A stretch of DNA of 64,000 nucleotides, from positions 32,001 through 96,000 of the IMG/VR virus record IMGVR_UViG_3300043788_000114; one strand, given 5' to 3'. Shown here piece by piece: positions 13,994-43,889 of this stretch (position 1 is its first letter; every line of letters begins with the position of its first letter). The position numbers were made by a program, and so were the translations under genes. Under the pieces are notes generated by a model. The model saw nothing but the letters and a program-made list of their open reading frames with translations. It had not been told where the DNA came from and did no database searches. The DNA comes from a virus.

Positions 13994-16777
13994 ATGCCCG
14001 ACCCTCAGCACAAACTCGTCAAGGTAGACGACTCGATCATCAAGTTTCCGGGTGACATGCCCGACGCTGATGTGGCTGCGGTCATCAAGAAATTTACTTC
14101 CTCTCCGGACTACAAAAAGCAGACACACACCAAAAACCAGATGCCATCGGGGATCGCGACGGAGGAGTCTGAGCACAAAAGACTCACCGGCAATGTTCCG
14201 ACCGTCACGCCGGACTGGAACACGGTGCGTCGGGCCGTCTACAAGGCCACAGAGCCCACTCTCCAGAACCCGAATACCAAGCCGGTCGACAACAGCGTAA
14301 AAGCGAACGTGGACGCCGCGTGGAACGCTGGAGCGAACGCAGCGAACGTGGGAGGAAACATCGCCAAGCGCGCGGGGCGCGTGATCTTTGGCGCGGTGGA
14401 CATGGCTCCGCAGATGTTCTCGATCCTGTCGAAGCTGGGATCGCCGGACGACAAGGTTTCACAGCAGGCCGAGACGGACTTGCTCAACTTCCATCCGGGC
14501 GCACAGATCGCGGACCGGCTGAAAGAGGCTGTCCACGACTGGCGGAAGTCGAAGAGCCTTGCGGCAGAGAACGCGTTGGGGGATGTGCTTGGATTCTTCC
14601 TGCTCGACAAAGCAGGAAAGGTTCTGCCGGAAGAGAGGATCAAACAACTCAACGCGGAAGGCGTGGTGCTTCCTCCGGAGGCAAAGCCAAAAGCTCCAGC
14701 ATCGATGCCGGGACAGCCACCGACGATTGAGGGAACATTTGAGCGCGCCACGCCGAAGCAGGTTGTGCCGGTCGAAGCGGCTGCGAAGCAGACCAGAAAC
14801 ACGCCGCCCAATCTGGAGGATGTGAAGGCGGCGGCGGAGAAACTCAAGCTGCCTGAGACGAATCCTCCAGCCGCGCCGCCGTCACTCGCCGACATCAAAG
14901 CCAAGGCAGAAGCGGTAAAGGCATCCAAGCCGGAGATCGCGCCGAAGCCTGCACCGCAGCCAGTAGCGACTCAACCTGTCGCAGCGCCGCCCAAAGTCGA
15001 AACTCCCGCACCGCAACCATCCACTGCTGTTCCTCCAGAACCGCCGAAAGCCGAAGCACCGCCAGCGCCAAAAGAGGAGCCTAAAACTACCAAGTACAAA
15101 TACGGCAACACACAAGCCGACATCCCGCAAGACTCCGACGCAGGTAAAGCTCTCGCGACCGCCCGCACCCAGATCGACAAGAACGACCTGATGCCGTCAA
15201 CTAACACGACAGATGGAAGCGGTCTCGAAGAGAACGCGCACATCACTGTGCGCTATGGAATCGACGGCGAGGACACGGCAGGGATCAAAGCGTATTTGGA
15301 AAAGCAGGCACCGTTTGAGGCCACATTGGGCAAGACGACTGCCTTCCCGCCAAGCGAGCACAGCGACGGTGGAGCGCCTATCGTTGTGAACATCGAATCA
15401 CCAGAACTGCACAGGATGGAGAAGGAGATCGATGAGCACGGCAACTTTGTTGACCGTTCGTTCCCGGAGTACAAGCCACACGTCACCTTGGGATATGTGA
15501 AGCCGGAGGCTGCGCAAAAGTATGTGGGCATGAACGGGATGGAAGGGAAAAAGTTCACCGTCAACTCCGTCTCGATCAGCAACAAAGATGGGTCTATCGA
15601 GGAAGTGCCGCTCAAGGGCACGCAAACACTGGAAAATGCGGACCTCAAGCAGGTGTACAAAGCACCCCCAGCGAGCGACATCCAACTTGCCGATGCGTGG
15701 AGGAGACTGGGAGATGTAAAGAACCAACTGGCTCAACTACCCCGCCCATACGATCCAAAACCGGACGCCACGCCGGAGCAGATCGAAAAGTGGAAAGCGG
15801 ATTACAAATCGTGGGCGGAGAAAGCGGAACCGTGGCTCCAGCAGTACACCCAAGCCACTCAGCAGATTGAGGACTTGAAGAACAGAGGTATCGGAGAAAT
15901 CCGGCTACTGCCGGACAAGTCCAGAATCCTTTACCTGAACCGCGCAGGATTGAACACGCTCTACACCGGCATGGCAGGAGAAGCGCGACCGGGCTACACG
16001 CTGAGCGGCGTGAGTCTTGACCCGCACACCGTGAAGTCGATCATCGGCAACCTGATGATCCTCAAACCACCACTGCACGAGGAATTGACGGACCTGATGC
16101 TTCGTGGGATGGACAAGAAAGGTGTAGTGATCGCCGCGATCCCGCGCAAGGGCGACTCGATCCGTGAAGCGGTCTCCACGTTGCGCGAAGAATTGAATCA
16201 TGGCTGGCAGAACACCGTCGCTGACCAGATGGGGAATCATCTTCCCAAGGAAAAGTTTGCGGAGTTGAACGAGGTGATTCCGGAGGGGATGAAGAGCCAT
16301 CTCAGGATCAACTACCCGGAGATTACCGACGACGGCAGCGAGTTGATGAATCGCAGGCGGGTGCGCGAGGCAAGTGCTAAGATGCTATCCGAGGCTCCGC
16401 AAAAGCTCGGGATCACAGAAGACGAAGCTGCCGCGTATCTGTTCCAGTATTTCACCGCGCTCGAAGAACAGCACGGGGAAAAAGCTCTGGACAAATTGCT
16501 CCACATCACCGTACTCGCAAAGGAGATCAAGGATGACTACTTCCGAGCAATCGACCGAGACACCGGAAAGCAAGCAGGTGGAAGAGGTGTGGGAAGCCTT
16601 CAAGACGAAGGGCCTCGCGGGGCTCCGGGAACTGATGCACAAGCGGGACGAGGAGTACCAGAAGGCGAAGGAGCAGCCGCAAAGCAAGTGAAAGTTAAGG
16701 ACCCGGAAGGTTACATCCACATCTTCCCGGATGAGAAGTCGGCATCGGCCTTTCGTGAGGCTGCGGGGATCAAATGA
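13994..16777 (+). CDS. Polyvalent virion-associated protein with 2H phosphoesterase (Acb1-like) domain
   Basis: Two HxT motifs, AHITVRYG (about 15239) and YKPHVTLGY (about 15479); degenerate zincin-like EELNH segment later. Confidence 0.7.
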   Translation: MPDPQHKLVKVDDSIIKFPGDMPDADVAAVIKKFTSSPDYKKQTHTKNQMPSGIATEESEHKRLTGNVPTVTPDWNTVRRAVYKATEPTLQNPNTKPVDNSVKANVDAAWNAGANAANVGGNIAKRAGRVIFGAVDMAPQMFSILSKLGSPDDKVSQQAETDLLNFHPGAQIADRLKEAVHDWRKSKSLAAENALGDVLGFFLLDKAGKVLPEERIKQLNAEGVVLPPEAKPKAPASMPGQPPTIEGTFERATPKQVVPVEAAAKQTRNTPPNLEDVKAAAEKLKLPETNPPAAPPSLADIKAKAEAVKASKPEIAPKPAPQPVATQPVAAPPKVETPAPQPSTAVPPEPPKAEAPPAPKEEPKTTKYKYGNTQADIPQDSDAGKALATARTQIDKNDLMPSTNTTDGSGLEENAHITVRYGIDGEDTAGIKAYLEKQAPFEATLGKTTAFPPSEHSDGGAPIVVNIESPELHRMEKEIDEHGNFVDRSFPEYKPHVTLGYVKPEAAQKYVGMNGMEGKKFTVNSVSISNKDGSIEEVPLKGTQTLENADLKQVYKAPPASDIQLADAWRRLGDVKNQLAQLPRPYDPKPDATPEQIEKWKADYKSWAEKAEPWLQQYTQATQQIEDLKNRGIGEIRLLPDKSRILYLNRAGLNTLYTGMAGEARPGYTLSGVSLDPHTVKSIIGNLMILKPPLHEELTDLMLRGMDKKGVVIAAIPRKGDSIREAVSTLREELNHGWQNTVADQMGNHLPKEKFAELNEVIPEGMKSHLRINYPEITDDGSELMNRRRVREASAKMLSEAPQKLGITEDEAAAYLFQYFTALEEQHGEKALDKLLHITVLAKEIKDDYFRAIDRDTGKQAGGRGVGSLQDEGPRGAPGTDAQAGRGVPEGEGAAAKQVKVKDPEGYIHIFPDEKSASAFREAAGIK

Positions 16778-29561: not shown

Positions 29562-30404
29562 ATGAGGTTTCCGATGACACCCCAAGAGCAAAGTGTACCA
29601 GCGCCAACGAAGTGGTGCCAGAAGCATCTACACGAAATCTCAATATCTACGAAAAGATGCCAAGAATGCCGGAAGGCGTATTTTCGGAAATACAGAACGC
29701 TTAACAGAGAGCACCTAAATTCTCTTGATCGAGAACGGTATCGAAAAAAACACGAAGGCCAACTTCGAAAGTATAATGGCTCTCCGGGCGGTATCGCCAG
29801 AGCGACCAAATCACGTCGCGAGGCTCTCGATAAGTATTACTCCAATCCAAAGATTTGCAAAAATTGCGGAGGCCCAATAGTCGTCAAGGATGGCGAGAAG
29901 ATTCCGCAAGCAAGGAAGCGAACCTTTTGCACACGGCGGTGCGCTGCCATTTTTAACAATCATTTACGGAAAAAAGAACGAGCGTGCAAGACCTGCGGGG
30001 GAGCAGTACGCAGAACAAGCAAGAGAATGCGTAACTACTGCGACGACTGCTTAAATGTGAAACTCCTTGCGATTACTGGAAAAATATCGAAACGTGCGTT
30101 ATTTACACGGAGAAATGGGTACCAATCGGCACGGTCGCAAATCCGAAGACACGCAGAGACGGTGTTCAATCGCTCCGGAAAGAAGAAGGTCTGTGCCATT
30201 TGCGGGTATAGCCTGTACGTTGAAATCGCTCATTTGCGAGCGGTGGCCGATTTTTCTGAGGACGCGCTCATTGAAGAGATCAACGCGGTAGGTAACTTAA
30301 TAGCCTTTTGCGCCAATCATCATTGGGAATTTGACAACGATAAACTTGTCGAGGATAATGTAACGGCGGAGTGGACTGGAGATGGTTCCAGCTTGGTCTC
30401 ATAA
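29562..30404 (+). CDS. HNH endonuclease with Zn fingers
   Basis: Several CxxC; CAICGY...EIAH...NLIAFCANHHWEFD; 3' end overlaps tRNA-Met. Confidence 0.8.
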   Translation: MRFPMTPQEQSVPAPTKWCQKHLHEISISTKRCQECRKAYFRKYRTLNREHLNSLDRERYRKKHEGQLRKYNGSPGGIARATKSRREALDKYYSNPKICKNCGGPIVVKDGEKIPQARKRTFCTRRCAAIFNNHLRKKERACKTCGGAVRRTSKRMRNYCDDCLNVKLLAITGKISKRALFTRRNGYQSARSQIRRHAETVFNRSGKKKVCAICGYSLYVEIAHLRAVADFSEDALIEEINAVGNLIAFCANHHWEFDNDKLVEDNVTAEWTGDGSSLVS

Positions 30405-30442
30405 GCCAAATCACGGCGGTTCGATTCCGCTCTCCGCAACCA
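30365..30442 (+). tRNA. tRNA-Met(CAT), initiator-like 1:72 mismatch
   Basis: Loop CTCATAA, unpaired G1:A72, CCA. Confidence 0.8.
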
Positions 30443-30759: not shown

Positions 30760-31225
30760 TGGCGCGTAAGCGCTGAGTGGAGGCCGGGGGCCGCAAGGCA
30801 CTGGGTCCGTTCTCGGACGTAAACCGAGTGGTGGAGGCGGCGGCAACGCCGCCCCTAGTTTTCGAGTACGCATGTAGAAGGTGATGGAGTTTGATTTCGG
30901 ACGTGGGTTCAACTCCCACCGGCTCCACCAAGAAGCACTTGAACGAGAAGCGCCGACTTACGATCATGAACACAACGTCTCTGTTTTCGGCTAACTCAAA
31001 AAAGCGAAGCTCGTTGGCTGTCGCTCAATGGTTCGAGTGTTTCTTTGTGGGGCCGTCACGGTTTCGACGGAATTAGAGGACATCACGCAGTTCATGCCGG
31101 ATGCTGTGGCCCACGAAACGGGACAACAGAAAACTAGGTGCAGAACCATTTGCACTGCCAATGGCTGCTTAAACACCAGTCATTCGAGGGTGGCCGCAAT
31201 ACTCGTCAAAGAACCATGCGGCAAC
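30760..31225 (+). ncRNA. ssrA: Circularly permuted (two-piece) tmRNA; outer ends approximate
   Basis: 3' tRNA-like end GGTTCAACTCCCACCGGCTCCACCA (to 30930) lies upstream of 5' end GGGGCCG..GGTTTCGAC (31049); G3:U70 pair; tag frame AEPFALPMAA* at 31140-31172. Confidence 0.85.
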
Positions 31226-31232
31226 AAATTCT

Positions 31233-31388
31233 ATGCCCGAGAATCGGAGAAAAAAGCAGCGGAGAAGGAAAGTCCTGCGACAAATCGAGCGGCGCAGGCA
31301 GTTCCAGCGAGTCAATGAAATCCTGTTGCGCTCCGCTTTCGGGGTAGAATGGAAAAAGTACCGCCAGCGTGGAATCGCGGTGCCGTAA
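31233..31388 (+). CDS. Small Arg-rich protein (not in ORF track)
   Basis: MPENRRKKQRRRKVLRQIERRRQFQRVNEILLRSAFGVEWKKYRQRGIAVP. Confidence 0.4.
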   Translation: MPENRRKKQRRRKVLRQIERRRQFQRVNEILLRSAFGVEWKKYRQRGIAVP

Positions 31389-33974: not shown

Positions 33975-34931
33975 ATGTTTGAGCCTAAAACACTTGCCGA
34001 AGCTATTCGCTACTACAGCGATGAGCAGACGTGTATCGACGTGGTTGCAGGTCTCCGCTGGCCAGATGGCAAGCCGGTATGCCCGAAGTGCTGGACGGCT
34101 GAGGGCGAGCGCAAGCACTACTGGCTCAAGACCCAAAAGCGGTGGAAGTGCTATGCCTGCCGCAAGCAATTCTCGGTCAAGGTGAACTCGATTTTCGAGG
34201 ATTCGGCCCTCAAACTGTCGGATTGGCTTATTGGCCTCTGGATGCTTGTGAACTGCAAGAACGGCGTGAGTAGCTATGAGCTATCGCGGGCCACGGGGAT
34301 CGCTCAGAAGTCAGCGTGGTTCGTTCTACAGCGCCTTCGTTACATCCTCAAGGCAGTTGACCATCGGCCCTTGGGAACGCCGGGGCCGGTCGAGGTAGAC
34401 GAATGCTATCTCGGCCCCGACGCACGCACGATGCACGCGGACAGGCGAGCCAAGTTGCAACTGGCGACAAACGGCTACGCGAAGAAAACGGCTGTGATCG
34501 GTCTGCTCGATCGCAACACGCGGCAGGTCCGAGCTGAGGTCTTACCGGAAGTCACACGCGATGTGCTGCAAGCGCGGATTCTCAAGCATTGCGGCAAGGG
34601 AACGACCGTGTACACCGATAGCCACGCCGGATACGACAACATGGATTCGCAGCGTTTCGTCCACGAAACCGTGAATCACATGATGGAGCATGTACGCGGC
34701 GATGTTTCGACGCAAGCGATTGAGAATTTCTGGTCGTGCCTCAAGAGAACACTGACCGGGACGTACATCGCGGTCGAGCCTTATCACTTGGACCTGTACC
34801 TGAATGAGCAGGTCTACCGCTTCAACAATCGCGTGAATAAAGACGATGGTCAGCGTTTCAGAAAGGCACTGAGCATGATCGGGGATCGCAGACTGACTTG
34901 GAACCGGCTTACCGGGAAGGAGGGGGCCTGA
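33975..34931 (+). CDS. IS1595 (ISXO2-like) transposase
   Basis: RWP...CPKC...CYACRKQFSV Zn ribbon; VEVDECY, VYTD, VNH, IENFWS.LKR, YLNE..YRFN. Confidence 0.95.
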   Translation: MFEPKTLAEAIRYYSDEQTCIDVVAGLRWPDGKPVCPKCWTAEGERKHYWLKTQKRWKCYACRKQFSVKVNSIFEDSALKLSDWLIGLWMLVNCKNGVSSYELSRATGIAQKSAWFVLQRLRYILKAVDHRPLGTPGPVEVDECYLGPDARTMHADRRAKLQLATNGYAKKTAVIGLLDRNTRQVRAEVLPEVTRDVLQARILKHCGKGTTVYTDSHAGYDNMDSQRFVHETVNHMMEHVRGDVSTQAIENFWSCLKRTLTGTYIAVEPYHLDLYLNEQVYRFNNRVNKDDGQRFRKALSMIGDRRLTWNRLTGKEGA

Positions 34932-36808: not shown

Positions 36809-37420
36809 ATGGCTGCAATCGATATGGCTGTGTATATGGCAGAGCGCCGGAAGAATCGGCGCGATAAACTGATTGCGATGTCGGGCGGGAGATGCATCAA
36901 GTGTAATTCAACCGACGATCTCAATTTTGACCACAAAGACCCGAAGGATCGCTCATTCCGATTGACTGGTAAGGCGCTGGATGGTTCGTGGGAAAAGATT
37001 CTTAAAGAGTGGCGAAAATGCCAGTTGCTTTGTAGGGTTTGTCACCTTCGGAAGACAAAAGAAAATGACGAGTACGGCGAACCGCCGAACAAGGGCGTTT
37101 CGAAATGGGGAGAAGTTCTTCCTGAGCACGGATGTGAAGCGGCTTACGCGCATGGTTGCAGATGCGATGAATGCTGTAAAGCGAGATACGAAGCGCGAGT
37201 TCGTCGCGGCGAATTGAAAGGTATCCGTGGACCACGAGGAGCAAATAATCCGAAGGGCGTCATCAAACACGGAACGCGCTCCGGATACCAAGCGGAGTTG
37301 AGACAAGGTTTAACTGCTTGCGATGAATGCAGAAAAGCGAACGCGGAAGAGACGCGGCGGCGCAAGCAAAATGAAAAGTTTGTTCCGAGGGAACCAGACG
37401 GTACGGTAGCGCACTGTTAA
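36809..37420 (+). CDS. HNH endonuclease
   Basis: GGRCIKC...LNFDHKDP...KCQLLCRVCH; HG...Y..GC.C..C repeats; overlaps tRNA-Asn. Confidence 0.85.
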   Translation: MAAIDMAVYMAERRKNRRDKLIAMSGGRCIKCNSTDDLNFDHKDPKDRSFRLTGKALDGSWEKILKEWRKCQLLCRVCHLRKTKENDEYGEPPNKGVSKWGEVLPEHGCEAAYAHGCRCDECCKARYEARVRRGELKGIRGPRGANNPKGVIKHGTRSGYQAELRQGLTACDECRKANAEETRRRKQNEKFVPREPDGTVAHC

Positions 37421-37458
37421 TGCGACAATAACAGGTTCGACTCCTGTCCTCGGAGCCA
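37384..37458 (+). tRNA. tRNA-Asn(GTT)
   Basis: Loop CTGTTAA, G73 CCA. Confidence 0.9.
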
Positions 37459-39490: not shown

Positions 39491-39566
39491 GGGCTGTTAG
39501 TTCAACTGAAGAGAATATCGGTCTACGAAACCGAAGATGGAGGTTTGAGCCCTCCACGGCCTACCA
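39491..39566 (+). tRNA. tRNA-Arg(ACG)
   Basis: Loop CTACGAA, CCA. Confidence 0.9.
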
Positions 39567-39620: not shown

Positions 39621-40158
39621 TTTGTCGATGGTGAAGTTTACGGATACTTCTCTTCCAAAGAAAACCTCTGTGAGCGTTTGTTCCTCGACAAAGATTTGCG
39701 GTTGGTGTAGTTTCAGTTACTTCTTAATCAGCAGGTCACGGGTTCGAGTCCCGTCAAGCAGCAATGCTTGTAGCTCAGTTGGTAGAGCAGCCGAGGCGAA
39801 AGCCAGTACCCTGAAGCGCCTGTTCCGCCGCAATAAAGTTCTCCGGTAGTGAAGAGGACGGTTACTTCACTCGAAATGAAAAACAACCGTTTTCGCTTGT
39901 TCTCCGGGGATTAAGTATGAGCCGTAGTGGTCGTAAGGGTTACTTCTTGGTTCGATTCCAAGGTTGGAAGCAATTCCTACCTGCCGATTGGTCGGCTACC
40001 CCTTGCAAATGTTCTCGGCTCTCTAAGTTCGGGTTGGTGTAGGAAACAGTTACTTCGCCTGTGGAGCGAGTAGTTCGGGTTCGAATCCCGGCGTCTTCTT
40101 CGGAAGATGTAGTGTAATGGCAGCACGCTTACGTCACTGTTCCGTCTGTTCCGCCCGA
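39621..40158 (+). ncRNA. Five tandem Y-RNA-like (YrlA-like) RNAs: 39621-39692, 39696-39833, 39840-39910, 39919-40021, 40029-40158
   Basis: Each has paired ends and shared TRGTG, GWTACTTC and TGTTC motifs; units 2 and 5 (4 partly) hold T-arm, capped acceptor-like stem, D-arm; adjacent to Ro60 gene. Confidence 0.75.
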
Positions 40159-40220: not shown

Positions 40221-41645
40221 ATGCGTACAAACGTAGCAGAAAAGAAGGCGCTCATCTACACGCACGAGGGCGCAGTGGCGGTGTTCATCAACCCCGTCGA
40301 TCAGCTTCGCCGCTCTGTCATGGCGAACATGTTATGGGAGGACGAGTTCTACGAGGATGGCCAGTCCATTGCAAAGCGGATTCAGGAAACGACCGCCGAA
40401 ATCCTCAAGCAGAAGAACGGCGCGCAGACCGTGGCGGACATTGCGTTTGAGGCCCGCACGAAGATGAAGCTGCGTCACGTCCCGTTGCTTCTATTGGTTT
40501 CGCTCATCCGTGCGAAGACCGATCAGACACGGAAGGTTGTGGCGGAAGCCATCGCGCGTGTGGTCCAGCGGCCAGACGAGATGGGTGAATTGATCTCGCT
40601 CTACTGGAAGCTGAATGACAAGCGTGCCATGTTGCCGCACCAGATGAAGATCGGCCTCGCGGCGGCGTTCCAGAAGTTCGATGCCTACTCGCTCGGAAAG
40701 TGGAACTCGGATGCGGCGGCGGTGAAGCTGCGCGACGTCCTGTTCTTGACGCACGCGAAGCCGAAGGATCAGGCACAGGCAGAACTCTGGAAGAAGTTAG
40801 CGGAGAAGACGCTGGAGTCGCCGGATACGTGGGAGGTGGCTCTCAGCGGCGGTGCTGACAAGAAGGAGGCGTTCACTCGTCTGCTCGCCGAGGAAAAGCT
40901 GGGTGCGCTGGCGCTGCTCCGAAATCTGCGGAATATGCAGCAGGCCGGTGTCGACGTTGAGGCGATCCGCAAGGGTCTCGGAACGATGAAGACAGAGCGT
41001 GTTCTTCCCTTCCGCTTCATCACGGCGGCAAAGTACGCTCCGCAGTTGGAGCCTCAGCTTGAGCAGGCCATGTTCCGGTGCCTCGCAAGTCAGGAGAAGT
41101 TGACGGGCAAGACAGTCTTGATCGTCGATTGCTCGGGATCGATGCATGGCGGAATCTCTGCCAAATCCGAACTGGACCGTCTCAGCGCGGCTGCTGCATT
41201 GGCTATGCTGGTGCGTGAGGTCTGCGAGGATGTTGCCGTGTACGCGACGGCGGGTGACGATGGTCGGCGCATCCACGCGACGATGCTGGTTCCTCCGCGT
41301 CGTGGTTTCGGTTTGCGTGATCTGCTTTCCTACGAGAGCACGAGCCGCAAGATCGGCGGAGGTGGAATCTTCTTGAAGCAGGTGATTGAGTACGTCCGCA
41401 AGGAAGAGAAGGACACGGCGGACAGGATCATCGTCATCACCGACGAACAGGACTGCGATCTGGTAAACAAGCCAGCAAGCGCCAAGCCATTCGGGAAGAA
41501 CAACTACCTTATCAACGTGGCTAGCTTCAAGAACGGCATCGGCTACGGAGAGTGGGTCCACATCGACGGCTGGAGTGAGGCGATCTTGGATTACATCCAG
41601 CAGTACGAGCGGTTGCAGGAAACCGGCAATGAGATTTCTGCCTAA
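40221..41645 (+). CDS. rsr: Ro60/TROVE domain ribonucleoprotein (Rsr-like)
   Basis: THEGA, EFYEDG, LRHVPL, DAYSLGKW, LRDVLFLTHAKP, TWEVALS, ALLRNLRNM, LPFRF, vWA DCSGSM and ITDEQ. Confidence 0.9.
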   Translation: MRTNVAEKKALIYTHEGAVAVFINPVDQLRRSVMANMLWEDEFYEDGQSIAKRIQETTAEILKQKNGAQTVADIAFEARTKMKLRHVPLLLLVSLIRAKTDQTRKVVAEAIARVVQRPDEMGELISLYWKLNDKRAMLPHQMKIGLAAAFQKFDAYSLGKWNSDAAAVKLRDVLFLTHAKPKDQAQAELWKKLAEKTLESPDTWEVALSGGADKKEAFTRLLAEEKLGALALLRNLRNMQQAGVDVEAIRKGLGTMKTERVLPFRFITAAKYAPQLEPQLEQAMFRCLASQEKLTGKTVLIVDCSGSMHGGISAKSELDRLSAAAALAMLVREVCEDVAVYATAGDDGRRIHATMLVPPRRGFGLRDLLSYESTSRKIGGGGIFLKQVIEYVRKEEKDTADRIIVITDEQDCDLVNKPASAKPFGKNNYLINVASFKNGIGYGEWVHIDGWSEAILDYIQQYERLQETGNEISA

Positions 41646-43293: not shown

Positions 43294-43388
43294 GCCGGAA
43301 TCCTCGGGCGAGGCGCTGGGATTTATAACCCCGGTTGTTGTCGGTAGATTGCCGATGTGCGAGGGATCATACCCCTCTTCCGGCCCCA
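43294..43388 (+). tRNA. Atypical tRNA with TAT anticodon (nominally Ile), long variable arm
   Basis: GCCGGAA/TTCCGGC acceptor, loop TTTATAA, V arm TCGGTA-GAT-TGCCGA, C73 CCA. Confidence 0.7.
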
Positions 43389-43390
43389 GT

Positions 43391-43474: not shown

Positions 43475-43560
43475 GGGATCGTACTCGAATTGGATGCAGA
43501 GACCTGACTTTTAATCAGCGGGGAAACCCAATGGGGGTTCGAGTCCCCCCGGTCCCACCA
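43475..43560 (+). tRNA. tRNA-Lys(TTT) with extra variable stem
   Basis: Loop CTTTTAA, GGG-GAAA-CCC insert, CCA. Confidence 0.85.
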
Positions 43561-43564
43561 AGTT

Positions 43565-43641
43565 GCTCCCGTATCGGCGCTGTCTTCTAAACAGCAGGCC
43601 GTAGACGGATGACGCGGGTTCGACTCCTGCCGGGAGCGCCA
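43565..43641 (+). tRNA. tRNA-Arg(TCT), no canonical D-arm
   Basis: Acceptor, anticodon (CTTCTAA) and T arms intact; only 7 nt between acceptor and anticodon stems. Confidence 0.75.
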
Positions 43642-43647
43642 TGTTTT

Positions 43648-43725
43648 GCCGCTGTACCTCACCCGCCTCCTAAGCGGGATTCGAGTAACTGGATGATGCC
43701 GGTTCAACTCCGGCCAGCGGCACCA
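43648..43725 (+). tRNA. tRNA-Arg(CCT), no canonical D-arm
   Basis: Loop CTCCTAA; same architecture. Confidence 0.75.
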
Positions 43726-43730
43726 GTTTT

Positions 43731-43807
43731 GCTGCCGTACCGGGTCGCCCTCCGAAGGCGAATACCGTAGATGGAGAAGGCAGGTTCGAGTCCTGTCGGC
43801 AGCGCCA
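43731..43807 (+). tRNA. tRNA-Arg(CCG), no canonical D-arm
   Basis: Loop CTCCGAA; same architecture. Confidence 0.75.
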
Positions 43808-43811
43808 GTTT

Positions 43812-43889
43812 GCAGGGTTAACTCAGTCCGCTCAGAGTGCCTCTCCTACAAAGAGGAAGCCGCAGGTTGAAATCCTGCACCCTGCACCA
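43812..43889 (+). tRNA. tRNA-Val(TAC), C33
   Basis: Loop CCTACAA, CCA. Confidence 0.85.

What the first reader, a model, noticed from the sequence alone, without database searches (positions are those of the whole stretch)
43565..43807. Three tRNA-Arg genes with a re-wired fold: D-loop-like element moved 3' of the anticodon arm
Seen: all three have intact acceptor, anticodon and T arms and CCA, but only about 7 nt (TATCGGC, TACCTCA, TACCGGG) where the D-arm should be. An 18-20 nt segment follows the anticodon arm and contains the complement of that linker (GCCG, GAG, CCG, co-varying) followed by TAGACGGA, TAACTGGA, TAGATGGA. Established: D-loop G18G19 contacts the T loop and A20 is the main ArgRS identity element. 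Inference: the GGA is a transplanted G18-G19-A20, giving an L-shaped tRNA with new connectivity that standard scanners may miss. I am not aware of this fold in bacteria or phages.
Basis: partly seen in the sequence, partly recalled or inferred. Interest (0 to 1): 0.85.

Follow-up and report, generated by a model that had tools for sequence, protein, structure and literature searches.

The report
Three rewired phage arginine tRNA genes
Three neighbouring genes in this phage's tRNA cluster very probably encode working arginine tRNAs whose D-arm is built from two strands lying on either side of the anticodon arm, a non-cloverleaf layout shared by many phages, missed by gene finders, and found in none of the papers I could search.

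Summary
Genes at 43565-43641 (UCU), 43648-43725 (CCU) and 43731-43807 (CCG) have normal acceptor, anticodon and T arms and an encoded CCA, but no D hairpin. A 3-4 nt strand after U8-A9 pairs with a strand after the anticodon arm. A run reading like a D-loop (A14, R15, G18 G19 A20, A21, N48) follows.

In 57 distinct relatives the three core pairs are kept in 57, 57 and 56 sequences, with about 30 double changes at two of them. A local hairpin rival shows no compensatory change.

- With A after GG, 50 of 50 genes carry arginine anticodons. With U or G there, 10 of 11 carry isoleucine anticodons.
- In 2 of 2 clear cases, A at "19" goes with U at "56".
- In related phages the same three array slots hold either ordinary or rewired tRNA-Arg.
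- The three serve 44% of this phage's arginine codons.

ARAGORN and the default Rfam run miss all three. Felix O1 and 262 other deposited phage records match the Felix O1-type copy of this gene. Seven literature searches found no description. This scan had already reported the family on other DNA. Expression and charging are unshown. I rate it a new variant of a known kind.

The parts
43565..43641 (+). Rewired tRNA-Arg(UCU) gene, 77 nt including the encoded CCA. Acceptor 43565-43571 with 43631-43637. U8 A9 at 43572-43573. Anticodon 43586-43588.
   Evidence: sequence. Own model R1 scores it 91.8 bits. RF00005 scores 33.7 bits. Its minimum-free-energy fold is the rewired fold, -30.9 kcal/mol.
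43575..43578 (+). Gene 1, strand X (CGGC). It pairs with 43598-43601 and runs directly into the anticodon stem, so it takes the place of canonical 22-25/26.
   Evidence: pairs at columns 12-15 with 48-52.
43598..43613 (+). Gene 1, strand Y (GCCG, 43598-43601) followed by the D-loop-like run TAGACGGATGAC (43602-43613). This run reads as A14 G15 .. G18 G19 A20 .. A21 C48.
43648..43725 (+). Rewired tRNA-Arg(CCU) gene, 78 nt including CCA. X is 43658-43661 (CTCA). Anticodon 43669-43671. Y is 43682-43685 (CGAG: 3 pairs plus an A.C layer). D-loop-like run TAACTGGATGAT at 43686-43697.
   Evidence: R1 scores 77.2 bits. RF00005 scores 40.3 bits. The rewired fold is -30.7 against an MFE of -32.5 kcal/mol.
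43731..43807 (+). Rewired tRNA-Arg(CCG) gene, 77 nt including CCA. X is 43741-43744 (CGGG). Anticodon 43752-43754. Y is 43764-43767 (ACCG: 3 pairs plus a G.A layer). D-loop-like run TAGATGGAGAAG at 43768-43779.
   Evidence: R1 scores 87.3 bits. RF00005 scores 36.8 bits. The rewired fold is -28.5 against an MFE of -30.3 kcal/mol.
39491..39566 (+). Ordinary cloverleaf tRNA-Arg(ACG). Together with the three rewired genes it gives the phage one tRNA for every arginine codon family.
   Evidence: ARAGORN. RF00005 scores 55.7 bits. Sequence.

Best explanation
The three genes encode elongator tRNA-Arg isoacceptors (UCU, CCU, CCG) of a phage-borne class in which canonical segment 10-21 (the 5' D-stem strand plus the D-loop) is encoded after the anticodon arm, in the place of the variable loop. 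The 3' D-stem strand follows U8-A9 directly. SHOWN: the strand after U8-A9 forms a 3-bp helix with the strand after the anticodon arm. A mostly non-Watson-Crick layer lies next to the anticodon stem, like 26:44. The secondary structure is therefore a three-way junction and not a cloverleaf. INFERRED: this helix stacks on the anticodon stem as a D stem does. The following run supplies A14 (to U8), R15 (to N48, Levitt-like), G18 and G19 (to the T loop) and A20. The usual L shape is thereby rebuilt with different chain connectivity. INFERRED: the genes are transcribed with the tight tRNA array and cut out like their neighbours. The host ArgRS charges them through A20, C35 and U/G36, since the phage encodes no ArgRS. 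They read AGA, AGG and CGG, while the ordinary tRNA-Arg(ACG) covers CGU, CGC and CGA.
For: (1) Anatomy. All three have acceptor, anticodon and T arms and an encoded CCA, and sit 5-7 nt apart inside a tRNA array.
(2) Family size. The shared motif finds 80 IMG/VR stretches. 68 of those 80 hold a match of at least 48 bits to my model R1. In the phage's own genome only the three score high (77-92 bits); the next best is 30.5.
(3) Covariation in 57 distinct sequences. Pair X2-Y3 is GC 27, UA 23, AU 5, CG 2, with 57 of 57 paired. Pair X3-Y2 is CG 27, GC 24, UA 5, with 56 of 57 paired. Pair X1-Y4 is CG 56, GC 1. The whole structure has 95.3% of cells paired, against 37-42% when partners are slid by 1-3 columns, and 0 of 500 shuffles reach the observed value. 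RNAalifold on an ungapped MAFFT alignment of 10 sequences predicts the same fold, with 14 of 20 pairs showing compensatory change.
(4) Positions my search pattern did not fix are invariant in 57 of 57: T8, A9, T33, C35 and A37. All 57 anticodons are arginine: TCT 38, CCT 10, CCG 5, ACG 3, TCG 1.
(5) Tertiary-type covariation. R15 with N48 is A-U 43, G-C 7, G-G 7. With A at '19', 2 of 2 clear family members have U at '56' (L169, L172). G at '19' with U at '56' gives 0 stretches.
(6) Identity link. Among 61 distinct genes passing a strict structural parse, 50 of 50 with A after GG carry Arg anticodons. Of the 11 with U or G there, 10 carry Ile anticodons (all 10 with discriminator A) and 1 carries Arg. 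PMC9976931 Table 1 lists A20, C35, U/G36 and A/G73 for bacterial Arg, and U20 and A73 among the bacterial Ile elements (passages seen).
(7) Natural swaps. In syntenic arrays (Lys-Lys-[UCU][CCU][CCG]-Val) the slots are rewired or canonical as follows: window RRR, L031 RRR, L169 RRR, L091 CRR, L013 CRC, L063 CCR, L069 and L088 CCR.
(8) Need. CGG, AGA and AGG make up 1145 of 2622 arginine codons in 149 crudely called ORFs. No other tRNA of the phage reads them.
Against: There is no evidence here of transcription, end processing, arginylation or ribosomal use. The only public runs holding the Felix O1-type copy are assembled contigs, which may be DNA.

The relatives were fetched with patterns that fixed G(Y4), T, A14, R15, G18, G19, A20, A21 and most of the T arm. 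The invariance of those positions is therefore imposed, not observed. Alignment A5 was fitted to the model's structure, and related sequences inflate the counts.

In genes 2 and 3 the new helix has only 3 pairs. The rewired fold is 1.8 kcal/mol above the computed MFE in both.

The 19:56 covariation rests on two loci that may share one origin. A third locus (L171) has GGGAA with C56 and an ambiguous register.

One family member with an Arg anticodon has U after GG (L138). 14 of 57 discriminators are U or C rather than A or G.

The three-dimensional fold is inferred from sequence logic only. A note of this scan says that part of the same claim made on other DNA fell in a later check, without saying which part.
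Confidence: 0.78

Rival explanations
1. The genes make stable tRNA-like RNAs that are not used in translation. They might act as decoys or sponges for a host tRNA-Arg-directed nuclease or modifying enzyme, or as regulators that bind ArgRS.
For: Phage tRNAs have been proposed to counter tRNA-depleting defences such as colicin D (PMC10264068, abstract and one passage seen). The altered core could serve to trap or escape such an enzyme. No expression or charging data exist.
Against: A decoy would not need to fill exactly the three arginine anticodons that the phage's one ordinary tRNA-Arg leaves open. It would not need to keep U33, C35 and A37 in 57 of 57 sequences. It would not be expected to alternate with ordinary tRNA-Arg of the same anticodon in the same array slot.
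Confidence: 0.09
2. They are working tRNA-Arg, but the core does not rebuild the canonical L. Instead they would be flexible, boomerang-like molecules such as mitochondrial D-armless tRNAs, and the D-loop-like run would be a leftover.
For: E. coli EF-Tu, the ribosome and HisRS accept an engineered D-armless tRNA (PMC11551756, abstract and discussion passages). The new helix is short, and the thermodynamic fold of genes 2 and 3 prefers other pairings.
Against: The run after strand Y keeps the D-loop pattern. R15 covaries with N48. A19 goes with U56 in 2 of 2 clear cases, and G19 with U56 gives 0 stretches. The base after GG tracks the amino acid. A leftover would not do any of this.
Confidence: 0.08
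3. They are D-armless tRNAs in which the long post-anticodon segment forms its own variable-arm hairpin (for example CCG-TAGA-CGG in gene 1), as in class II tRNAs.
For: Genes 1 and 3 can draw a 3-bp hairpin there.
Against: Across 57 distinct sequences that hairpin has 63.2% of cells paired and no pair with a change on both sides. The X/Y helix has 30 and 29 double changes at two pairs.
Confidence: 0.02
4. They are decayed tRNA genes with no function.
For: Gene finders reject them.
Against: The class is conserved across at least 68 IMG/VR stretches. The Felix O1-type copy matches 263 deposited phage records. All stems show compensatory changes. The three-gene cassette is kept in three related phages.
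Confidence: 0.02

Closest known systems
Ordinary class I bacterial and phage tRNA-Arg (Rfam RF00005). Examples are this window's tRNA-Arg(ACG) at 39491-39566 and the cloverleaf tRNA-Arg(UCU), (CCU) and (CCG) that occupy the same array slots in L063, L069, L088, L091 and L013.
   Same: Acceptor stem, U8, anticodon arm with U33, C35 and A37, T arm and CCA. The D-loop sequence pattern is shared, including G18 G19 A20 (AGACGGATA against AGACGGATGA). The place in the array and the codons served are also the same.
   Different: There is no D hairpin and no 4-5 nt variable loop. The order along the chain is 1-9, 22-43, a linker of 2-7 nt, 10-21, then 48-76. The result is a three-way junction instead of a four-way one. 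Sequences in the same slot are not alike, so the genes were replaced rather than remodelled in place.
Metazoan mitochondrial D-armless tRNAs, for example tRNA-Ser(AGY) (PMC4013460 and PMC10412605 seen as search listings with abstracts; PMC7609411 passages seen).
   Same: No D hairpin. A short connector follows the acceptor stem.
   Different: The cited reviews say those tRNAs lack the D-loop/T-loop contacts, adopt non-L or flexible shapes, and work with co-evolved mitochondrial factors. The phage genes keep a D-loop-like run, a standard T loop and covarying 15:48-like and 19:56-like positions, and would have to work with an ordinary bacterial machinery.
Engineered 'mini HisT', a D-armless tRNA made to work in E. 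coli (PMC11551756; abstract and passages seen).
   Same: It shows that bacterial EF-Tu, ribosome and a synthetase tolerate a tRNA without a D hairpin.
   Different: It is artificial and lacks D-arm parts altogether. [quoted passage not shown] The phage class is natural and keeps the D-arm parts in a new order.
Circularly permuted tRNA genes of the red alga Cyanidioschyzon merolae (recalled; no call).
   Same: The parts of a tRNA are encoded in a non-standard order.
   Different: There, as I recall, the 3' half precedes the 5' half in the gene, and processing through a circular intermediate restores an ordinary cloverleaf. Here the acceptor strands are at the two ends of the gene, so the mature chain itself should carry the new order (inference).
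tRNA-Sec, tRNA-Pyl and allo-tRNAs (review PMC7609411; passages seen).
   Same: They are natural tRNAs that depart from the standard arm lengths.
   Different: In the passages I saw they are still described with separate acceptor, D, anticodon and T arms in the usual order. The review's text holds no occurrence of 'phage' or 'virus'.

Membership tests
tRNA, canonical cloverleaf (Rfam RF00005) | 7-bp acceptor stem, discriminator, 3' CCA | tested here: met
   Read. The acceptor pairs are 99.7% paired across 57 sequences, and all 7 pairs show double changes.
tRNA, canonical cloverleaf (Rfam RF00005) | 5-bp anticodon stem with a 7-nt loop, U33 and a purine at 37 | tested here: met
   T33 and A37 are present in 57 of 57. 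The stem is 96.1% paired.
tRNA, canonical cloverleaf (Rfam RF00005) | T arm: a 5-bp stem and a loop of the TTCRANY type | tested here: met
   In the relatives this arm was partly fixed by my search pattern.
tRNA, canonical cloverleaf (Rfam RF00005) | D hairpin between position 9 and the anticodon stem | tested here: not met
   Only 5 nt lie there. The Rfam alignment deletes the D arm.
tRNA, canonical cloverleaf (Rfam RF00005) | Variable region that is either a 4-5 nt loop or its own hairpin | tested here: not met
   The region is 18-19 nt long. A local hairpin has 63.2% of cells paired and no compensatory change.
tRNA, canonical cloverleaf (Rfam RF00005) | Score at or above the curated gathering score (29 bits) | tested here: inconclusive
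   The genes score 33.7, 40.3 and 36.8 bits when short stretches are searched with lax filters. None is listed in the whole-window run at gathering thresholds.
Bacterial tRNA-Arg identity set (PMC9976931 Table 1) | A20 in the D loop | tested here: met
   An A follows GG in all three genes. Its equivalence to position 20 is supported by 50 of 50 Arg anticodons with A there, against 10 of 11 Ile anticodons with U or G. The position in space was not tested.
Bacterial tRNA-Arg identity set (PMC9976931 Table 1) | C35 and U/G36 | tested here: met
   The three anticodons are TCT, CCT and CCG. C35 is present in 57 of 57; position 36 is T in 48 and G in 9.
Bacterial tRNA-Arg identity set (PMC9976931 Table 1) | A or G at position 73 | tested here: met
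   The window's genes have G, A and G. Across the family, 43 of 57 have A or G.
Bacterial tRNA-Arg identity set (PMC9976931 Table 1) | Arginylation by ArgRS | not testable with these tools
   This needs an enzyme assay. No ArgRS gene (PF00750) is found in the phage genome, with the control ringing in 14 of 14 genomes.
Rewired phage tRNA class (my covariance model R1; not a curated family) | Acceptor, U8 A9, strand X abutting the anticodon stem, anticodon arm, linker, strand Y, D-loop-like run, T arm | tested here: met
   The three score 91.8, 77.2 and 87.3 bits. Two of the three were among the 10 sequences the model was built from, so those two match by construction.
Metazoan mitochondrial D-armless tRNA | Loss of the D-loop/T-loop interaction elements (no conserved G18 G19, degenerate T loop) | tested here: not met
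   GG and a standard T loop are present in all three genes. A19/U56 co-change occurs in 2 of 2 clear cases.
Circularly permuted tRNA gene | The 3' half is encoded upstream of the 5' half, so the acceptor strands are internal to the gene | tested here: not met
   The acceptor 5' and 3' strands are at the two ends of each gene, with CCA last.

The most novel reading that the evidence does not exclude
These are fully functional elongator tRNAs with a chain topology not described for any translation system: segment 10-21 is transposed to the variable-loop position and the L shape is rebuilt around a three-way junction. On this reading they have repeatedly displaced ordinary tRNA-Arg (and some tRNA-Ile) in phage arrays because the rewired core escapes a host defence that reads the ordinary D-arm and variable pocket. 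Such a defence could be a tRNA-Arg-directed nuclease or modifying enzyme. The rewired tRNAs would stay legible to the host's ArgRS, EF-Tu and ribosome.
Probability: 0.2. Interest if true: 0.92.

Novelty: new variant of a known kind. Interest (0 to 1): 0.8.

Why it matters
[quoted passage not shown] If the rewired tRNAs are charged and used, bacterial ribosomes, EF-Tu, RNase P and ArgRS naturally accept a tRNA whose core is threaded differently.

The class would then have four consequences:
- It is a natural experiment on which tRNA features are chain connectivity and which are only three-dimensional shape.
- It explains "missing" arginine tRNAs in phage annotations, Felix O1 among them. Of the 40 records listed, 28 had no feature at the site and 2 called it a tRNA.
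- It is a ready-made scaffold for orthogonal tRNA design.
- It is a possible new move in the conflict between phages and tRNA-targeting host defences.

This window adds two things to the earlier reports of the scan. It shows a complete cassette in which every arginine isoacceptor except ACG is of the rewired kind. It also has relatives in which the same slots hold ordinary tRNAs, which is the nearest thing to a complementation test that sequence alone can give.

Tried and rejected
1. My first collection scan used a pattern with one N too many, which was my miscount. Its 21 loci (L002-L022) mostly hold ordinary tRNAs. Three of them (L010, L013, L022) happened to hold family members nearby.
2. 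ARAGORN in mitochondrial and permissive modes gave only spurious 47-57 nt calls inside the genes, never the full genes.
3. The local variable-arm hairpin reading is rejected.
4. A phage-encoded ArgRS (PF00750) or CCA-adding enzyme (PF01743) that might have co-evolved with the odd tRNAs was not found in the 138.5-kb genome.
5. Expression. It returned 24 rows (20 hold the stretch or part of it), of which the 20 holders are kept as contigs and only one of those is on record as RNA. Four were laid. Contigs cannot show ends, strand or level, and DNA may be present, so nothing follows about expression. In two of the four runs the contig carries other letters in place of the gene, which I could not read.
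6. In-place remodelling. Ordinary and rewired genes in the same slot are not similar in sequence, so I dropped the idea of a local rearrangement in this lineage.
7. Host. The helicase has no cultured-phage relative above 60% identity, so the host remains unknown.
8. Cellular genomes. The motif gave 20 stretches in 185,579 species' genomes, and 11 of those are family members. They are MAG contigs and four Bradyrhizobium records with an ACG anticodon, the same gene type that IMG/VR holds as viral contigs. The four Dactylosporangium and Virgisporangium hits (42-47 bits) are cloverleaf tRNAs that match the motif by chance.
9. Literature. Searches found no description. Subscription-only journals and supplementary files were not searchable, so prior description cannot be excluded.
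Full report
WHAT IS THERE. The window is bases 32001-96000 of a 138,516-base IMG/VR virus record rated complete. All of the phage's tRNA genes lie in the window. ARAGORN finds 29 tRNAs and a permuted tmRNA between 28.6 and 44.5 kb. Between tRNA-Lys(UUU), which ends at 43560, and tRNA-Val(UAC), which starts at 43812, lie three genes that ARAGORN does not call. They are 43565-43641, 43648-43725 and 43731-43807.

Each gene has:
- a 7-bp acceptor stem, then T8 A9 and five more bases;
- a 5-bp anticodon stem with a 7-nt loop (CTTCTAA, CTCCTAA, CTCCGAA);
- 18, 19 and 18 further bases;
- a standard T arm, a discriminator and an encoded CCA.

The 27-nt degenerate motif common to the three occurs 3 times in the window and never in 100 shuffles.

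SCANNERS. ARAGORN misses all three in every mode tried. The whole-window Rfam run at gathering thresholds lists 24 tRNA matches but none of these three. Given short stretches, RF00005 scores them 33.7, 40.3 and 36.8 bits against a cut-off of 29. It reaches these scores by deleting the D arm and inserting 15-16 nt at the variable position.

THE FAMILY. The motif finds 80 stretches in IMG/VR. I built a covariance model (R1) from an ungapped alignment of 10 members (A3), two of which come from the window. 68 of the 80 stretches then hold a match of at least 48 bits. With the window and three further loci this gives 78 matches, 57 of them distinct. The other 12 stretches hold other things. In the phage's own genome only the three genes score high (77-92 bits), and the next best is 30.5 bits.

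A blastn search with the Felix O1-type member finds 263 deposited phage records. By first word of the organism name they are Escherichia 138, Salmonella 54, Klebsiella 40, Streptomyces 6, Campylobacter 5 and others. Of the 40 rows listed, 28 have no feature at the site, 2 have an unnamed 'tRNA', 9 have a protein call and 1 is an unannotated record. In Felix O1 itself the gene lies unannotated inside the tRNA cluster.

In one genome for each of 185,579 prokaryote species the motif finds only 20 stretches, and 11 of these are family members. They are MAG contigs and four Bradyrhizobium records, so the class is overwhelmingly phage-borne.

THE FOLD. Call the four bases that abut the 5' strand of the anticodon stem X, and the four bases just before the T-A-R-..-GGA run Y. 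The pair counts across the 57 distinct sequences are:

| Pair | Types | Paired |
|---|---|---|
| X1-Y4 | CG 56, GC 1 (Y4 = G was fixed by my pattern; X1 was not) | 57 of 57 |
| X2-Y3 | GC 27, UA 23, AU 5, CG 2 | 57 of 57 |
| X3-Y2 | CG 27, GC 24, UA 5, other 1 | 56 of 57 |
| X4-Y1 | mostly not a standard pair | 19 of 57 |

A relative outside the pattern has U-A at X1-Y4 (L169). The X4-Y1 layer sits where 26:44 would sit. The whole structure has 95.3% of cells paired, against 37-42% with partners slid by 1-3 columns, and 0 of 500 shuffles reach it.

RNAalifold, run de novo on the MAFFT alignment A3, returns the same fold, with 14 of 20 pairs showing compensatory change. The rival local hairpin in the long segment has 63.2% of cells paired and no compensatory change.

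Thermodynamics alone are lukewarm:

| Gene | Rewired fold (kcal/mol) | Computed MFE (kcal/mol) |
|---|---|---|
| 1 | -30.9 | -30.9 (the same fold) |
| 2 | -30.7 | -32.5 |
| 3 | -28.5 | -30.3 |

WHICH PART MOVED. X runs without a break into the 5' strand of the anticodon stem. If the X/Y helix stacks on that stem as a D stem does, X therefore occupies the place of 22-25/26 and Y the place of 10-13. Y is followed by T, A, R, two bases, G, G, A, two or three bases, A, N and then the T stem. That is the pattern 13, A14, R15, 16, 17, G18, G19, A20, 20a/b, A21 and 48. The chain order is thus 1-9, 22-43, a linker of 2-7 nt, 10-21, then 48-76. This step is inference from strand polarity.

Four observations support the equivalences:
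- The run in gene 1 (AGACGGATGA) is almost the D-loop of an ordinary tRNA-Arg(CCU) in a related array (AGACGGATA).
- 'R15' covaries with 'N48': A-U 43, G-C 7, G-G 7. These are the known Levitt-pair types; that G15:G48 occurs in tRNA-Cys is listed in PMC9976931 Table 1.
- A scan for A at '19' gave 4 stretches. Two are clear family members, and both have U at '56' in the T loop (L169:6312-6385 and L172:1046-1119, at 78.5 and 78.8 bits). One (L171) reads GGGAA with C56 and can be read in another register. One (L170) is not a tRNA. G at '19' with U at '56' gave 0 stretches. The two positive cases may be a single event.
- T8 and A9 are invariant in 57 of 57, although no pattern fixed them.

ARGININE IDENTITY. 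All 57 distinct sequences carry arginine anticodons (TCT 38, CCT 10, CCG 5, ACG 3, TCG 1), with C35 in 57 of 57 and U or G at 36.

My pattern had fixed the A after GG, so I scanned for the same motif with any base but A there and applied one strict structural parse to both scans. This gave 61 distinct genes. Of the 50 with A, all carry Arg anticodons. Of the 11 with U or G, 10 carry Ile anticodons (TAT 9, GAT 1; all 10 with discriminator A) and 1 carries Arg (L138). 37 pattern matches did not fit the parse and were left out; among them were two members that the model accepts (L027, cut by the contig end, and L098).

PMC9976931 Table 1 lists A20, C35, U/G36 and A/G73 for bacterial Arg, and U20 and A73 among the bacterial Ile determinants. 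Its text calls A20 the main determinant for E. coli ArgRS (passages seen). The base after GG therefore behaves as position 20. Kinship among the sequences means these counts are not independent events.

USE IN THIS PHAGE. The phage has one ordinary tRNA-Arg(ACG) at 39491-39566 and no other tRNA for CGG, AGA or AGG. In 149 crudely called ORFs (at least 100 codons, greedy non-overlap, 83% of the genome) those codons are 513, 307 and 325 of 2622 arginine codons, which is 44%. The phage has no ArgRS or CCA-adding enzyme gene, so the host's enzymes would have to serve.

NATURAL SWAPS. Related phages keep the array order Lys(CUU)-Lys(UUU)-[UCU]-[CCU]-[CCG]-Val(UAC). R means rewired and C means ordinary:

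| Locus | UCU slot | CCU slot | CCG slot |
|---|---|---|---|
| Window | R | R | R |
| L031 | R | R | R |
| L169 | R | R | R |
| L091 | C | R | R |
| L013 | C | R | C |
| L063 | C | C | R |
| L069 and L088 (identical genes) | C | C | R |

Ordinary and rewired occupants of one slot share the anticodon but not the sequence, so one displaced the other. That the two kinds are interchangeable at one position in a tRNA operon is the strongest sequence-level argument that the rewired genes do the same job.

WHAT IS NOT SHOWN. Transcription, processing, charging, decoding and the three-dimensional fold are all unshown. Laying four of them told nothing about expression. Why phages prefer this design for arginine, and sometimes isoleucine, is open. 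Escape from tRNA-directed host defences is a published idea for phage tRNAs in general (PMC10264068, abstract and one passage), but I have no evidence for it here.

COMPARISON AND NOVELTY. The genes work like ordinary tRNA-Arg but fail two defining features of the cloverleaf: the D hairpin and the variable loop. They are unlike mitochondrial D-armless tRNAs, which have lost the D/T contacts (PMC7609411 passages; PMC4013460 abstract). They are also unlike circularly permuted tRNA genes (recalled), whose mature product is a cloverleaf.

Seven full-text searches found no description. The 2020 review of non-canonical tRNAs does not contain the words phage or virus. A 2024 paper states that all known bacterial tRNAs are cloverleaves. 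Journals outside the library and supplementary files could not be searched.

This scan has reported the same family repeatedly on other DNA. A later check of one such report kept the observation at 93 in 100 and put the bold reading at 30 in 100. Another note says that part of the claim fell, without saying which part.

I rate the finding as a new variant of a known kind, with interest 0.8.

Noticed in passing
window 43294-43389 (+): A 96-nt tRNA-like gene lies between tRNA-Met and tRNA-Lys(CUU). It has a 7-bp acceptor stem (GCCGGAA/TTCCGGC), CCA, a hairpin whose loop holds TAT (Ile, AUA), and a second hairpin with loop TAGATTG (GAT). ARAGORN does not call it in the window. It does call a 94-nt tRNA-Ile(tat) at the same array position in L031 and L091 (an 80-nt one in L063).
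   Followed up: partly
window 43475-43560 (+): tRNA-Lys(UUU) is 86 nt long with a long extra arm at the variable position, which is unusual for a lysine tRNA. It is conserved in the relatives L031, L013 and L169.
   Followed up: partly
window 40221-41645 (+): A 474-aa protein with a TROVE (Ro60-type) domain and a VWA domain sits between the tRNA arrays (phrog_850 'RNA-binding protein', E 3.3e-44; PF05731, E 1.5e-11). Another note on this genome reports Y-RNA-like units upstream of it.
   Followed up: no
window 30838-31263 (+): A phage-encoded permuted (two-piece) tmRNA, with tag AEPFALPMAA by ARAGORN and RF04321 at 75.2 bits.
   Followed up: no
window 30365-30442, 37384-37455 and 40032-40101 (+): Three further odd tRNA calls. 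The first is a 'tRNA-???' with a two-base anticodon call (RF00005 34.5 bits). The second is a 46.3-bit Rfam tRNA that ARAGORN does not list. The third is a 70-nt second tRNA-His(gtg) that Rfam does not list.
   Followed up: no
window 39491-39566 (+): The ordinary tRNA-Arg(ACG) has D-loop AACTGAAGA and T loop TTTGAGC. This is A at 19 together with U at 56, the same co-change seen in the rewired CCG genes of L169 and L172.
   Followed up: partly
window 33975-34931 (+): An IS1595-family transposase (PF12762 E 2.7e-34, PF12760 E 1.7e-10) lies inside the phage, between tRNA arrays.
   Followed up: no
window 13994-16777 (+): A 927-aa protein with a 2H phosphoesterase domain (2'-5' RNA ligase superfamily PF13563, E 3.7e-10). 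It also has a weak match to anti-CBASS Acb1 (PF23474), just below that family's cut-off.
   Followed up: no
L035, L050, L054, L057, L064, L078, L100 (IMG/VR): Seven viral stretches hold a roughly 55-nt tRNA-like mini-element: an acceptor-like stem (AGCAGGA/TCCTGCA), a T arm and a GTAGCCGGAGGAA run. A hairpin with a 9-nt loop stands where the anticodon arm would be, and there is no CCA. Its nature is unknown.
   Followed up: no
L169 2182-2255: A close relative of this phage carries a tRNA with anticodon TCA, which ARAGORN calls 'tRNA-SeC'. It is a possible UGA-reading tRNA, and I saw no counterpart in the window.
   Followed up: no
L076 7595-7720 (Felix O1-type locus): In contigs of two of the four public runs laid, the site of the rewired gene carries 83 or 144 other letters instead. 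This suggests alternative alleles at this slot among Felix O1-like phages. The letters were not shown.
   Followed up: no
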